From: Escherichia coli
GTDB lineage: Bacteria > Pseudomonadota > Gammaproteobacteria > Enterobacterales > Enterobacteriaceae
Assembly (NCBI RefSeq): GCF_013315695.1
Contig: NZ_CP054353.1
DNA length: 64,000 bases
Strand: one strand, 5' to 3'
Shown here: positions 48,225 to 49,610 of the stretch, in pieces
Position numbering within the stretch: position 1 is the stretch's first letter
Layout of the letters: each line of letters begins with the position of its first letter
Translations under genes and position numbers: made by a program
The notes under the pieces: model-generated
Seen by the model: the letters and a program-made list of their open reading frames with translations, nothing else
Told to the model about the DNA's origin: nothing
Databases searched by the model: none

Positions 48225-49610
48225 TAACATATATGGACGCTCCCGGAATGCAATGCTTTCTTCAGTTATGTAATAAAACGGGTAGGTGCAGCCATATATC
48301 CGGTTTCTGATGGGATTTTTATCCCGAACCATGATGAAATCCGCCAGGCAGGTACCAATCATCCTCTACGGGCTAACTTGCCCTTGTTACCTCTCGGTGT
48401 ATCCTGCCTGCGGTCTTACCTGTTTTGCCATCTTCTGAAGTCACCTGCACCTACCAGGACGTTAACTTTTTTTCAGCACCTCGTCAGATTGACTGACCTT
48501 GTGTCAGGCGAGCTGCCGAGGTTGATATTCAGTATTGTGTGACAACATTGACCACATGATCCTCGCTGTTTTTGCCGCCATGGCGACAACAGCTACATTG
48601 TAGTGCTTCCGCTCAAGGAGTCCCTGAAGCCAGGAATTCTCCTCAACCGCGCCGTTTCGGTTGACCCAGGCGGTAAGTGCGCGTGCGCCGTGAACCAGCA
48701 GGTATCGGAAATATCCATCTCCACGTTTGCTGATCCCTCCCAGTTGCTGTTTCCCGCCGCTGGAATGTTCCTTTGGTGTCAGCCCCAGCCATGAAGCGAA
48801 CTGCTTTGCGGTACTGAATTGTCGGGCATTACCCACTGCTGCTACCACATAAGTGGCCGTTAGCATGCCAACCCCCGGGATCTTGGCCATTCTCTGGCAG
48901 GCTTCCTGCGTTCTATACCAGGAGGCCAGAGCTTCTTCTACCTGTTTAACTTGTTCTTCAAGTTCCCGGATATGTTTAGACTGTCTGTAGATGCTGGTTC
49001 TGACAAAGGGAGATAAACCATTTTCGCCATCCTCCAGAATGGCTGGCAGCTCACGTGTTAAATGGCTTTGTCCGGCCGCAATCGTAATACCAAACTCAGC
49101 AAGTGTGGCTCTTAAACTATTGGCACAGGCAATCCGCTCACGGATAAGTATTCCCCGTTCAGTGTGTAACGCTAAAACGGCCTGCTGCTCTTCGGTTTTT
49201 ATCTGAACAAAACGCATATTCGGACGGGTTACCGCTTCGCAGATTGCTTCAGCATCTGCTGCATCCGTCTTGTTCGTTTTCACATAAGGCTTCACATACT
49301 GCGGAGGTATGAGTTTTACCTCATGACCATAGCGGGTGAATAATCGCGCAAAATAATGACTGGATGAGCAGGCTTCCATGCCAATCAGACAAGGTTCCAG
49401 TTGAATCACAAACTGAACAAACTTAGCCCGGGTGAGCTTTTTACGCAAAATAGTATGGCCTTCATGATCGACACCATGAAGCTGAAAAACGTTCTTTGCC
49501 AGGTCGATACCAAGAGTTGATACTTTCATGTGGACGCTCCTAATTTTTCAGGACGTATTGCAACGATCCAGTCTGGTACTTTGATACCGTAAAATCTGGA
49601 GCGTCCATCT
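48225..49610 (-). mobile_element. IS110-family insertion sequence (IS1111-group-like), ~1.38 kb
   Basis: transposase ORF flanked by inverted TGGACGCTCC (48234-48243) and GGAGCGTCCA (49588-49597); short 5' leader and ~260-bp 3' non-coding end. Confidence 0.75.
48504..49529 (-). CDS. IS110-family transposase (DEDD recombinase)
   Basis: 341 aa; N-terminal GIDLAKN..., central FVQIKTEEQQA and C-terminal GLTPKEHSSGG..GISKRGD resemble IS1111/IS4321-type transposases as remembered. Confidence 0.85.
   Translation of the reverse strand: MKVSTLGIDLAKNVFQLHGVDHEGHTILRKKLTRAKFVQFVIQLEPCLIGMEACSSSHYFARLFTRYGHEVKLIPPQYVKPYVKTNKTDAADAEAICEAVTRPNMRFVQIKTEEQQAVLALHTERGILIRERIACANSLRATLAEFGITIAAGQSHLTRELPAILEDGENGLSPFVRTSIYRQSKHIRELEEQVKQVEEALASWYRTQEACQRMAKIPGVGMLTATYVVAAVGNARQFSTAKQFASWLGLTPKEHSSGGKQQLGGISKRGDGYFRYLLVHGARALTAWVNRNGAVEENSWLQGLLERKHYNVAVVAMAAKTARIMWSMLSHNTEYQPRQLA

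What the first reader, a model, noticed from the sequence alone, without database searches (positions are those of the whole stretch)
48225..49610. IS110/IS1111-type element with an RBS-sequestering hairpin and a long 3' non-coding end that may encode a guide (bridge/seek) RNA
TGGACGCTCC occurs at 48234-48243 and 49531-49540 (directly abutting the transposase ATG), with the inverted copy GGAGCGTCCA at 49588-49597. In the mRNA, the inverted copy pairs with the sequence containing the AGGAG ribosome-binding site, a typical IS translational attenuator. The ~260-bp non-coding end 3' of the transposase (48244-48503) is where IS1111-group elements are reported to encode the structured RNA that programs target and donor recognition.
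Basis: partly seen in the sequence, partly recalled or inferred. Interest (0 to 1): 0.45.

Follow-up and report, generated by a model that had tools for sequence, protein, structure and literature searches.

The report
ISEc81 insertion sequence with guide RNA
This is an intact copy of the catalogued E. coli insertion sequence ISEc81, whose non-coding tail encodes a conserved structured RNA that pairs with both its insertion site and its own ends; this kind of RNA-guided mobile element has been described before, so the finding is correct but ordinary.

Summary
The inverted copy GGAGCGTCCA lies at 49598-49607, not 49588-49597. The element is a 1386-bp insertion at window 48230-49615, give or take 1 bp because of an AT shared with the target.

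It is an isoform of ISEc81, in the IS1111 group of the IS110 family. Its transposase matches the reference at 337 of 341 residues. It has all the sequence hallmarks of the IS1111 group.

The 273-bp 3' non-coding end contains a conserved RNA module at 48281-48455 on the minus strand.
- My covariance model finds it once per element in relatives down to 40% protein identity. 15 of 18 base pairs show compensatory changes.
- The same model aligns to the experimentally validated ISEc11 seekRNA (E 3e-12).
[quoted passage not shown] All four covary with their DNA partners across relatives.

The 5' hairpin that hides the ribosome-binding site is real (-30 kcal/mol, z -4.6). It forms in every plausible transcript, so it is a general damper on translation.

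ISEc81 and its 3'-end bridge RNA prediction are already published.

Side findings:
- The target is a multi-copy repeat resembling the orphan Rfam motif TwoAYGGAY.
- This copy marks one junction of a roughly 1.3-Mb chromosomal inversion.

The parts
48230..49615 (-). ISEc81 isoform, a 1386-bp insertion. The boundary is ambiguous by 1 bp either way because of the AT shared with the target.
   Evidence: Empty sites in K-12 (lysO-aqpZ) and at copA-ybaP read GGTAAC-AT-CCCTG. The occupied site reads GGTAACAT|ATATGGACG...CATCTCATTAT|CCCTG. About 175 of 5426 complete E. coli genomes carry it.
48504..49529 (-). Transposase gene (341 aa, DEDD/RuvC-like N-terminal domain plus PF02371 C-terminal domain)
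   Evidence: ORF. Pfam PF01548 at 1e-14 and PF02371 at 4e-24. 337/341 identical to ISEc81. GLTPKEHSSG fits the family motif GL-P----SG (read from the sequence).
49598..49615 (-). Left end: 7-nt extension TAATGAG (49609-49615) plus left subterminal inverted repeat ATGGACGCTCC (49598-49608)
   Evidence: The repeat is invariant in relatives at 64-97% protein identity.
49530..49608 (-). 5'-UTR hairpin. The left repeat pairs with a third, inverted copy GGAGCGTCCAC (49530-49540) that contains the Shine-Dalgarno GGAG and abuts the ATG. It encloses two small hairpins, one of them the conserved ACGGYATC..GTRCC at 49575-49590.
   Evidence: MFE -30.2 kcal/mol, z -4.6. SD paired with P about 1 in read-through and junction-promoter transcripts. 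Conserved in relatives. In L017 the RBS copy covaries with a different repeat.
48445..48455 (-). Closing stem of the RNA, 5' arm GGUAGGUGCAG
   Evidence: 11-nt perfect complement to 48281-48291 (pair I10). One compensatory position among relatives.
48414..48432 (-). Near-invariant junction strand GAUGGCAAAACAGGUAAGA, presumed protein-binding scaffold
   Evidence: Most columns are invariant in the 10-sequence alignment and conserved in distant relatives. The role is inferred.
48341..48413 (-). Target-binding module (the seekRNA core): basal stem, internal loop, apical hairpin GGGCAAGUUAGCCC
   Evidence: RNAalifold and pair counts: helices 100% paired, 9 of 18 pairs compensatory in 10 sequences. 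96.5% paired and 15/18 compensatory in 31 distinct sequences. The covariance-model hit 48327-48433 scores 122 bits and is the only one in the window. The model aligns to the ISEc11 seekRNA.
48385..48395 (-). Guide in the 5' side of the loop, GAGAGGUAACA. It pairs with the transposase-sense strand of the target just right of the insertion point (TGTTACCTC).
   Evidence: (pair I8). The equivalent loop matches the right flank in all 7 lineages for which flanks were available. Two ISEch3 copies differ by 1 nt in the guide and by the complementary nt in the flank.
48360..48364 (-). Guide in the 3' side of the loop, GGAUG. It has the same sense as the target GGA|TG and so pairs with the opposite strand across the insertion point.
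   Evidence: Invariant in relatives, whose left flanks all end in ..GGAT or ..GGAC. It overlaps the other guide's footprint, as described for IS1111 seekRNAs.
48332..48340 (-). Junction strand J2, AUUUCAUCA: candidate donor guide complementary to nt 3-7 of the left-end extension plus AT
   Evidence: Covaries with the left-end extension in L017, L022, L024, L031 and L036. The donor-guide role is inferred.
48301..48331 (-). Third helix UGGUU/AACCG enclosing the variable hairpin GGGAUAAAAAUCCC
   Evidence: RNAalifold pairs 179-183:210-214 with compensatory changes.
48292..48300 (-). Junction strand J3, GAUAUAUGG: candidate donor guide with the same sense as the right-end extension and circle junction
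   Evidence: Covaries with the right end: ATATA, ATGTA or ATACA in both. The donor-guide role is inferred.
48270..48291 (-). Closing stem 3' arm CUGCACCUACC followed by CGUUUUAUUAC, a possible 3' end of the RNA
   Evidence: A U-run follows the stem in relatives. The simple terminator scan did not call it.
48230..48253 (-). Right end: -35-like TTGCAT (48248-48253), right subterminal repeat GGAGCGTCCAT (48233-48243), 3-nt extension ATA (48230-48232)
   Evidence: Joining the ends gives TTGCAT-16 nt-TATAAT. A TTGC-type hexamer sits at a fixed distance in relatives and in ISEc11.
48060..48229 (.). Left half of the target repeat R (multi-copy, resembles TwoAYGGAY)
   Evidence: Present in 5425 of 5426 genomes, median 3 copies. 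Uninterrupted K-12 copies match RF01731 at 30.6 bits, below the gathering score of 43.
49616..49705 (.). Right half of the target repeat R

Best explanation
Window 48230-49615 is an intact copy of ISEc81, an insertion sequence of the IS1111 group of the IS110 family, lying on the minus strand.

Mechanism, by homology with ISEc11 and IS621 (inferred):
- The element excises as a circle. Joining its ends creates a promoter, TTGCAT-16-TATAAT.
- That promoter drives one transcript covering the 5' UTR, the transposase gene and the 3' non-coding region.
- The 3' region folds into a bridge/seek RNA of about 175 nt (48281-48455). A closing stem encloses a multi-loop.
- One arm is a stem, internal loop and hairpin module. 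Its 5' loop strand (GAGAGGUAACA) pairs with one strand of the target just right of the insertion point. Its 3' loop strand (GGAUG) pairs with the other strand across the insertion point.
- Two multi-loop strands recognise the joined ends. AUUUCAUCA pairs with the left-end extension. GAUAUAUGG has the sense of the right-end extension.
- Bound to the DEDD transposase, the RNA brings the circle junction and the target together. The element then inserts, in one orientation and without duplication, at GGGA|TG. That site lies in a hairpin loop of a multi-copy intergenic repeat.
- In the 5' UTR the left terminal repeat pairs with a third copy of the repeat that contains the Shine-Dalgarno sequence. 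This hides it and keeps transposase translation low.

Shown here: element identity, boundaries, target, conserved RNA structure, covariation of guides with their DNA partners, and the predicted hairpin.

Inferred: that the RNA is made, that it binds the transposase, that a circle forms, and that the hairpin attenuates translation.
For: Identity:
- Pfam domains.
- 337/341 identical to the ISfinder ISEc81 transposase taken from the supplement of PMC11187229.
- RefSeq annotates copies as 'IS110 family RNA-guided transposase'.
- The supplementary table of PMC11208160 lists 'ISEc81 RE IS1111', meaning a bridge RNA was predicted in its right end.

Boundaries and target:
- Empty-site comparison.
- The same sequence and orientation at three or more chromosomal sites and in Kluyvera.

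RNA structure:
- RNAalifold consensus.
- The target-module helices are 100% paired with 9 of 18 pairs compensatory, and sliding the partners drops pairing for the whole tested structure from 92.4% to 27-46%.
- Covariance model R1 hits once per element on the transposase strand in 37 loci, in relatives down to 40% protein identity.
- 96.5% of cells paired and 15/18 pairs compensatory in 31 distinct sequences.
- R1 hits the ISEc11 non-coding region at E 3e-12. The published ISEc11 target GTGAAAATACTG is matched by CAGUAUUUU and GUGAAAAUA in the same two loop strands.

Guides:
- The 5' loop is complementary to the right flank in 7 lineages. There is a 1-nt guide change with a complementary 1-nt flank change between two ISEch3 copies in one Dickeya genome.
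- J2 and J3 covary with the left-end and right-end extensions.

Promoter and transcription:
- Junction promoter geometry.
- No sigma-70-like site on the transposase strand inside the integrated element.

Hairpin.
Against: - There are no expression data, so neither the RNA nor the circle has been observed for ISEc81.
- The alignment used for one search was fitted to the model, which biases pair counts toward the structure. Searches use an independent MAFFT alignment.
- The J2 pairing has a fixed C opposite A at one position in most relatives, and ISEch3 shows the 'wrong' base change there.
- The J3 register is partly hidden by the palindromic ATATAT.
- The 5' loop guide has one mismatch to every E. 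coli target copy examined.
- The hairpin stem is invariant among close relatives. ISYen1 carries an uncompensated C.A mismatch and the Citrobacter NCU1 relative has lost half of the third copy.
- Rfam 15 has no family that matches the RNA.
Confidence: 0.88

Rival explanations
1. The 3' non-coding region acts only as DNA. It would be a binding platform for the transposase or host factors at the right end, and no functional RNA is made.
For: No transcript evidence is available here. No promoter-like site lies upstream of the region on that strand. Rfam has no matching family.
Against: Compensatory double changes keep Watson-Crick pairing in 15 of 18 pairs. That is the signature of a folded single strand, not of a duplex binding site. 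The loop sequences track the flanking target in each lineage. The homologous ISEc11 region gives an RNA that co-purifies with the transposase and is required in trans (PMC11187229).
Confidence: 0.04
2. The third repeat copy at the ribosome-binding site is not mainly an mRNA attenuator. It would be a DNA site: an extra transposase-binding site in the left end, or an operator for autoregulation of the junction promoter.
For: The copy has the sequence and orientation of the right-end repeat (GGAGCGTCCA-C/T-AT). Its covariation in L017 fits either model, because the right repeat changes too. The hairpin forms in junction-promoter transcripts as well, so it cannot discriminate against read-through. 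ISYen1 tolerates a C.A mismatch.
Against: The predicted stem is unusually stable (z -4.6) and covers exactly the GGAG up to the base before the ATG. More distant relatives keep only the GGAG-proximal part.
Confidence: 0.25
3. This copy is an immobile relic, and its features are only inherited.
For: 92-94 genomes share this same junction, so most copies at this site are inherited by descent. Decayed ISEc81-like remnants exist on plasmids.
Against: The ORF is intact, the 11-bp repeats are perfect, and the RNA module scores close to the best hit in the search (122.1 bits against a top score of 123.1). Copies at 99.4% identity or better occupy at least three chromosomal sites plus plasmids, with 1-4 places per genome. 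One closely related genome has the same inverted junction with a scar-free empty site.
Confidence: 0.1
4. The non-coding region encodes a small protein or an antisense regulator instead of a guide RNA.
For: Mechanical ORFs overlap it: 48286-48438 (+), 48378-48542 (+) and 48192-48362 (-). Gene callers have placed ORFs there in relatives.
Against: The substitution pattern is paired-column covariation, with insertions and deletions in loops. No such ORF is conserved across relatives. The model hits only the transposase-sense strand.
Confidence: 0.02

Closest known systems
ISEc81 (ISfinder entry; IS110 family, IS1111 group)
   Same: The transposase is 337/341 identical and 341 aa long. The element is listed as IS1111 group with a bridge RNA predicted in its right end.
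   Different: Four amino-acid differences, so this is an isoform. The ISfinder DNA entry could not be consulted, so ends and length were derived here from empty sites.
ISEc11 and its seekRNA (Siddiquee et al. 2024, PMC11187229)
   Same: Same architecture: subterminal repeats, a downstream non-coding region, a promoter formed at the circle junction, and no duplication. The RNA module is homologous (model hit at 49.7 bits, E 3e-12). The top-strand match is 5' of the bottom-strand match in the same loops.
   Different: The transposases are only 43% identical. The target differs: GGGA|TGTTACCTC in a repeat hairpin loop, against the linear GTGAAAATACTG. ISEc11 has been tested experimentally and ISEc81 has not.
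IS621 bridge RNA (Durrant et al. 2024, PMC11208160; Hiraizumi et al. 2024)
   Same: One RNA carries separate segments for the target and for the donor (the joined ends). Each is read on both strands around a short shared core, here AT.
   Different: In IS621 the RNA is encoded in the left end, upstream of the gene, and both binding sites are simple internal loops. Here it is downstream, the order of the guides is reversed, and the donor-matching strands sit in a multi-loop, as that paper notes for many IS1111 elements. Long 11-bp subterminal repeats are present.
ISYen1, ISEch3 and unnamed relatives in Serratia, Pectobacterium, Acerihabitans and Jejubacter
   Same: Identical 11-bp terminal repeat, a third copy at the ribosome-binding site, the same RNA scaffold, and insertion after ..GGAT or ..GGAC in a hairpin loop.
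   Different: 64-73% protein identity. The variable guide differs and matches a different hairpin stem in each host.
Rfam RF01731 TwoAYGGAY motif (orphan; Weinberg et al. 2010)
   Same: The uninterrupted target repeat aligns over the full model (positions 1-168), with two adjacent hairpins whose loops read CAUGGAUG and CAGGGAUG. ISEc81 inserts in the second loop.
   Different: The score of 30.6 bits is below the gathering score of 43, so membership is not established. This concerns the target, not the element.

Membership tests
IS1111 group of the IS110 family | DEDD (RuvC-like) N-terminal domain plus PF02371 C-terminal domain; transposase of 330-350 aa | tested here: met
   PF01548 at 1e-14 and PF02371 at 4.4e-24; 341 aa.
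IS1111 group of the IS110 family | C-terminal motif GL-P----S(T)G | tested here: met
   GLTPKEHSSG at residues 248-257, read from the translation. The motif is as given in PMC11187229.
IS1111 group of the IS110 family | Subterminal inverted repeats of about 11-13 bp, with terminal extensions of 7 bp (left) and 3 bp (right) | tested here: met
   An 11-bp perfect repeat. Comparison with the empty site leaves 10 extension bases in total, consistent with TAATGAG plus ATA. The 7/3 split itself cannot be fixed because of the shared AT.
IS1111 group of the IS110 family | The longer non-coding region lies downstream of the transposase gene | tested here: met
   273 bp downstream against 87 bp upstream.
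IS1111 group of the IS110 family | Site- and orientation-specific insertion without target duplication | tested here: met
   The same junctions at the lysO/aqpZ, yohP/dusC and yegH sites and in Kluyvera. The empty sites lack any duplicated bases.
IS1111 group of the IS110 family | Circular intermediate whose abutted ends create a promoter | not testable with these tools
   Sequence only: joining the ends gives TTGCAT-16-TATAAT, with the -35-like hexamer conserved in relatives. Circle formation needs PCR.
seekRNA / bridge RNA of IS1111-type elements | A conserved structured RNA encoded in the non-coding region on the transposase strand | tested here: met
   Homologous to the validated ISEc11 seekRNA region.
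seekRNA / bridge RNA of IS1111-type elements | [quoted passage not shown] | tested here: met
   GAGAGGUAACA (5' loop) against TGTTACCTC, and GGAUG (3' loop) matching GGA|TG; the two overlap on TG.
seekRNA / bridge RNA of IS1111-type elements | The guide changes with the target among relatives (natural reprogramming) | tested here: met
   7 lineages, plus a single-nucleotide guide/flank pair between ISEch3 copies L049 and L051.
seekRNA / bridge RNA of IS1111-type elements | Segments that recognise the donor (the joined ends) | tested here: inconclusive
   J2 and J3 covary with the left-end and right-end extensions in 3-6 sequence variants. However, J2 keeps a fixed mismatch and the register rests on few variants.
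seekRNA / bridge RNA of IS1111-type elements | The RNA is transcribed, co-purifies with the transposase and is required for movement | not testable with these tools
   Needs RNA-seq, RNP purification and transposition assays.
Rfam RF01731 TwoAYGGAY (for the target repeat) | Score at or above the curated gathering threshold | tested here: not met
   30.6 and 30.2 bits against 43 for the E. coli copies; 40.2 and 37.7 bits for nearby elements in Jejubacter and Kluyvera.

The most novel reading that the evidence does not exclude
The multi-copy intergenic repeat that ISEc81 and its relatives insert into may be the same kind of element as the orphan Rfam motif TwoAYGGAY. The 'small RNA' families Ysr224 and AaHKsRNA22 also hit these flanks. 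On this reading, those motifs are repeat hairpins whose ..GGAY loops serve as landing pads for this clade of RNA-guided insertion sequences. The invariant GGAUG guide reads the loop and the variable guide reads the stem. That would give an orphan RNA motif a genomic role and would mean some annotated sRNAs are repeat or IS-end transcripts.
Probability: 0.3. Interest if true: 0.45.

Novelty: already known. Interest (0 to 1): 0.22.

Why it matters
For genome annotation, this locus should be labelled ISEc81, with its guide RNA at 48281-48455 on the minus strand. The flanks should be labelled as an interrupted repeat.

The guide assignments add a worked natural example of how IS1111-type elements read target and donor. 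The target is read by an invariant GGAUG plus a variable 9-11-nt guide. The donor is read by two multi-loop strands. These details could help in designing programmable recombinases from this clade, but they extend published work and do not change it.

The locus also documents a recurrent genome-scale effect. Two inverted copies bracket a roughly 1.3-Mb inversion centred on the replication terminus, seen in about 1.7% of complete E. coli genomes.

Tried and rejected
- **Rfam scan of the element.** An E-value-mode scan of 47500-50200 gave only a chance mir-611 hit. No bridge or seek RNA family was matched.
- **Promoter and terminator scan.** It found no site on the transposase strand inside the element. 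It also did not call the closing stem plus U-run as a terminator, because the loop is too long for its rule.
- **Plasmid tblastn.** This returned mostly relatives below 60% identity: IS4321, IS5075, IS5708 and IS1618. These were too distant for a first alignment, so closer relatives were fetched through protein search and contig look-ups.
- **J3 strand assignment.** I first read J3 as complementary to CCATATAT. The ATACA and ATGTA variants showed it has the same sense as the right end instead.
- **AGAUGG as a left-end guide.** I considered the AGAUGG in the invariant 5' strand as a left-end guide. I rejected it because ISYen1 and the 88% relative break the match.
- **Selective read-through guard.** I considered that the hairpin blocks only read-through transcripts. 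I rejected this because junction-promoter transcripts keep 8-9 of the 10 lower stem pairs.
- **Name of the repeat.** A literature search for a classical name for the repeat (RSA, Box C, IRU) found nothing.
- **'Solo' 3' ends on plasmids.** The 3'-end matches without the rest of the element are internally deleted relics, not independent RNA genes.
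Full report
**Observation**

- The region holds a 341-aa ORF on the minus strand (48504-49529), with 273 nt of non-coding DNA downstream and 87 nt upstream.
- ATGGACGCTCC at 48233-48243 and its reverse complement at 49598-49608 form a perfect 11-bp inverted repeat.
- A third copy, GTGGACGCTCC on the + strand at 49530-49540, abuts the start codon.
The rest is accurate.
- Allowing up to one mismatch, the 11-mer occurs 5 times in the window against 1.14 expected, and no shuffle reached 5. 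Three of the five sites are in this element.

**What it is**

- The protein has the DEDD_Tnp_IS110 and Transposase_20 domains.
- It is 337/341 identical to the ISfinder ISEc81 transposase, as printed in the source data of Siddiquee et al. 2024.
- It is 43% identical to the ISEc11 transposase.
- The window is E. coli. The element occurs in about 175-179 of 5426 complete genomes at 99.4% identity or better, in 1-4 places per genome (337 places in all). A few plasmid copies and relics also exist.
- RefSeq already labels some copies 'IS110 family RNA-guided transposase'.
- A supplementary table of Durrant et al. 2024 lists 'ISEc81 RE IS1111', meaning a covariance model placed a bridge RNA in its right end.
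- Only three indexed papers mention ISEc81, all in lists of mobile elements.

**Boundaries and target**

- Uninterrupted copies of the flanking sequence in K-12 (lysO-aqpZ) and at copA-ybaP read ...GCGCGAGGTAAC-AT-CCCTGTAAAACGCG... The occupied site reads ...GGTAACAT|ATATGGACG...CATCTCATTAT|CCCTG....
- The insertion is therefore 1386 bp with no duplication. Its ends are ambiguous within a shared AT.
- Under the IS1111 convention of a 7-nt left and a 3-nt right extension, the element is 48230-49615. In transposase orientation the target is ACAGGGA|TGTTACCTC.
- The same junctions occur at the yegH site, at yohP/dusC and in three Kluyvera copies.
- The flanks belong to a repeat of about 260 bp present in 5425 of 5426 genomes, with a median of 3 copies.

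**The RNA in the 3' end**

- I fetched relatives at 64-97% protein identity (Kluyvera, an 88% relative, ISYen1, ISEch3, Serratia, Pectobacterium, Acerihabitans, Jejubacter) and a series at 40-53%.
- All of the closer relatives except the Citrobacter NCU1 element keep the identical 11-bp terminal repeat at both ends.
- A MAFFT alignment of ten downstream regions has near-invariant blocks separated by variable stems.
- RNAalifold predicts a basal stem, an internal loop closed by a 3-bp helix, and an apical hairpin.
- On that independent alignment, the three helices of this module are 100% paired and 9 of 18 pairs show changes on both sides. For the whole tested structure, pairing falls from 92.4% to 27-46% when partners are slid by 1-3 columns.
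- Covariance model R1, built from this module, hits the window once (48327-48433, minus strand, 122 bits). It hits once per element, always downstream of the gene on the sense strand, in 37 loci.
- In the resulting 31 distinct sequences, 96.5% of cells are paired and 15 of 18 pairs are compensatory. This alignment is fitted to the model, so it leans toward the structure.
- With filters off, R1 hits the ISEc11 downstream region at 49.7 bits (E 3e-12). The published target GTGAAAATACTG is matched there by CAGUAUUUU in the 5' loop strand and GUGAAAAUA in the 3' loop strand.
- The ISEc81 module is therefore homologous to an RNA shown experimentally to co-purify with its transposase and to be required for movement.

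**Target guides**

- In ISEc81 the 5' loop strand GAGAGGUAACA (48385-48395) is complementary to the flank TGTTACCTC(G)C. This appeared first as inverted repeat I8.
- The 3' loop strand contains GGAUG (48360-48364), identical in sense to the target GGA|TG. It therefore pairs with the other strand across the insertion point.
- The order (top-strand match 5' of bottom-strand match) and the overlap agree with the description of IS1111 seekRNAs.
- In each of seven lineages the 5' loop strand carries 6-10 nt complementary to that lineage's own right flank, in the same register.
- Two ISEch3 copies in one Dickeya genome differ by one base in the guide (GCCGCG against GCGGCG) and by the complementary base in the flank.
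- The GGAUG is invariant, and all left flanks end in GGAT or GGAC. A U opposite either purine on the other strand would tolerate this. That last point is inference.

**Donor guides (inferred, less certain)**

- An 11-bp perfect stem (48445-48455 with 48281-48291) closes a multi-loop. The multi-loop contains the target module, a third helix (UGGUU/AACCG, with compensatory changes) and three single strands.
- Strand J2 (AUUUCAUCA, 48332-48340) is complementary to nt 3-7 of the left-end extension plus the first AT of the repeat. It changes in step in elements whose extensions read TAATGGA, TAATGAC, AAATGGG, AAATAAG or GAATGGA.
- Strand J3 (GAUAUAUGG, 48292-48300) has the sense of the right-end extension and junction. 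It reads AUAUA, AUGUA or AUACA where the right end reads CCATATA, CCATGTA or CCATACA, and it often continues into the first bases of the left extension.
- Weak points: a fixed C opposite A in J2, and the small number of variants.

**Expression signals**

- Joining the ends gives TTGCAT, 16 nt, TATAAT.
- No promoter-like site lies on the sense strand inside the integrated copy. The RNA is therefore probably co-transcribed with the gene and then processed, as proposed for ISEc11.
- The closing stem is followed by CGUUUUAUUAC, which may set a 3' end. The simple scan did not call it.

**The 5' hairpin**

- The left repeat pairs with the third copy over 10 bp, plus a further 6 bp, and encloses two small hairpins. 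The MFE is -30.2 kcal/mol against -16.9 for shuffles (z -4.6).
- The GGAG is paired with probability about 1, both in a transcript reading in from dusC and in a transcript starting at the junction promoter.
- The third copy is kept in all close relatives except one, where it is partly lost. ISYen1 has an uncompensated mismatch.
- In L017 (53% identity) the terminal repeat is ATGGTCGCCCC and the sequence before the ATG is GGGGCGACC. That is covariation, but the right repeat changes too, so a DNA-site explanation fits equally well.
- I conclude that the hairpin is real and probably damps translation in general. It is not a selective guard against read-through.

**The target repeat**

- Uninterrupted K-12 copies align over the whole Rfam TwoAYGGAY model, with two adjacent hairpins whose loops are CAUGGAUG and CAGGGAUG. 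ISEc81 sits in the second loop.
- The score of 30.6 bits is below the gathering value of 43, so membership is not established.
- Relatives also sit in hairpin loops ending in GGAT or GGAC.
- Their flanks give mostly sub-threshold hits to TwoAYGGAY, Ysr224 and AaHKsRNA22. One AaHKsRNA22 hit (L061, 40.4 bits) just passes its gathering score of 39.8.
- TwoAYGGAY is still an orphan motif in the literature I could search.

**Genome context**

- The window has aqpZ|IS|dusC. The same genomes have yohP|IS|lysO.
- In K-12 the repeat lies between lysO and aqpZ (0.915 Mb) and between yohP and dusC (2.229 Mb), in opposite orientations. The window therefore shows one junction of an inversion of about 1.3 Mb, roughly centred on the terminus.
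- 94 genomes have the IS-dusC junction and 92 have the aqpZ-IS junction.
- One genome (KFu014) has aqpZ-repeat-dusC with no element.
- Homologous recombination between two inverted 1.4-kb copies is the simplest cause. Recombinase-mediated inversion cannot be excluded.

**Verdict**

The element, its family and the presence of a guide RNA in its 3' end are already in the literature and databases, so novelty is low. The specific guide assignments, the covariation evidence for donor reading, the link to a TwoAYGGAY-like repeat and the inversion are incremental additions.

Noticed in passing
window 47288-50708; loci L001-L004, L010, L062: The window carries aqpZ|ISEc81|dusC, and the same genomes carry yohP|ISEc81|lysO. 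In K-12 these genes lie at 0.915 and 2.229 Mb with the repeat in opposite orientations. This is therefore one junction of a roughly 1.3-Mb inversion about the terminus, seen in 92-94 of 5426 genomes.
   Followed up: partly
NZ_CP091712.1 2927550-2928232 (hit H159): One genome (KFu014) has the inverted aqpZ-repeat-dusC junction at 99.6% identity with no IS and an intact target. This is either scar-free loss of the element or an inversion through the repeat itself.
   Followed up: no
window 48060-48229 and 49616-49705; L010 237-376; L011 1566-1705: The roughly 260-bp target repeat is present in nearly every E. coli genome at a median of 3 copies. It aligns full-length but below threshold (30.6 of 43 bits) to the orphan Rfam motif TwoAYGGAY. 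The IS sits in the second AYGGAY-like loop.
   Followed up: partly
L054-L056 2253-2348, L047 2283-2398, L061 2335-2430, L055 812-905: The flanks and IS ends of relatives hit the Rfam 'sRNA' families Ysr224 and AaHKsRNA22. All of these hits are below threshold except L061, which just passes the AaHKsRNA22 gathering score. These families may describe repeat elements or IS-end transcripts.
   Followed up: no
L007 (NZ_CP076706.1, O170:H18): Between dusC and yohP, the repeat plus ISEc81 lies in the opposite orientation to the K-12 repeat at that site, and the outer flank differs from both K-12 sites. This is unexplained.
   Followed up: no
L012 2501-2927 (plasmid NZ_MN783745.1) and hits H71-H73: IncF plasmids carry an internally deleted ISEc81-like relic. 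It keeps the 3' RNA module (111.7 bits with my model) fused to a 5' fragment of the gene, next to type VI secretion genes.
   Followed up: partly
L049 vs L051 (Dickeya dadantii 3937): Two ISEch3 copies in one genome differ by one base in the variable guide and sit next to flanks that differ by the complementary base. A RAYT-type Y1 transposase gene lies beside copies L049 and L052.
   Followed up: partly
window 49575-49590; left ends of L017, L024, L031, L036, L037, L063: A small hairpin ACGGYATC(N2-4)GTRCC in the left end is conserved even in relatives at 40% identity and in ISEc11, with a compensatory T-A/C-G change. Its role is unknown.
   Followed up: partly
L021 about 1560-1670 (Francisellaceae MAG): The right end of this relative is followed by tandem repeats of its last ~27 bases (TGTTGCGAATTCTGGACGGCCCATATA, two full copies and part of a third in the stretch read).
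   Followed up: no
window 26101-26185 and 26291-26318: A tRNA gene, and about 100 bp away a single 28-nt match to the CRISPR-DR4 repeat model (50 bits).
   Followed up: no
window 50770-56780: Beyond dusC, where K-12 has yohJK, this strain has a 397-aa FAD-monooxygenase-like ORF followed by several further ORFs. The gene content here is strain-specific.
   Followed up: no
L059/L060 (Citrobacter sp. NCU1): This 65%-identity relative keeps the left repeat and the RNA module (74.7 bits). Its right repeat has diverged (GAGAGTCCAT) and the RBS-proximal third copy is half lost.
   Followed up: no
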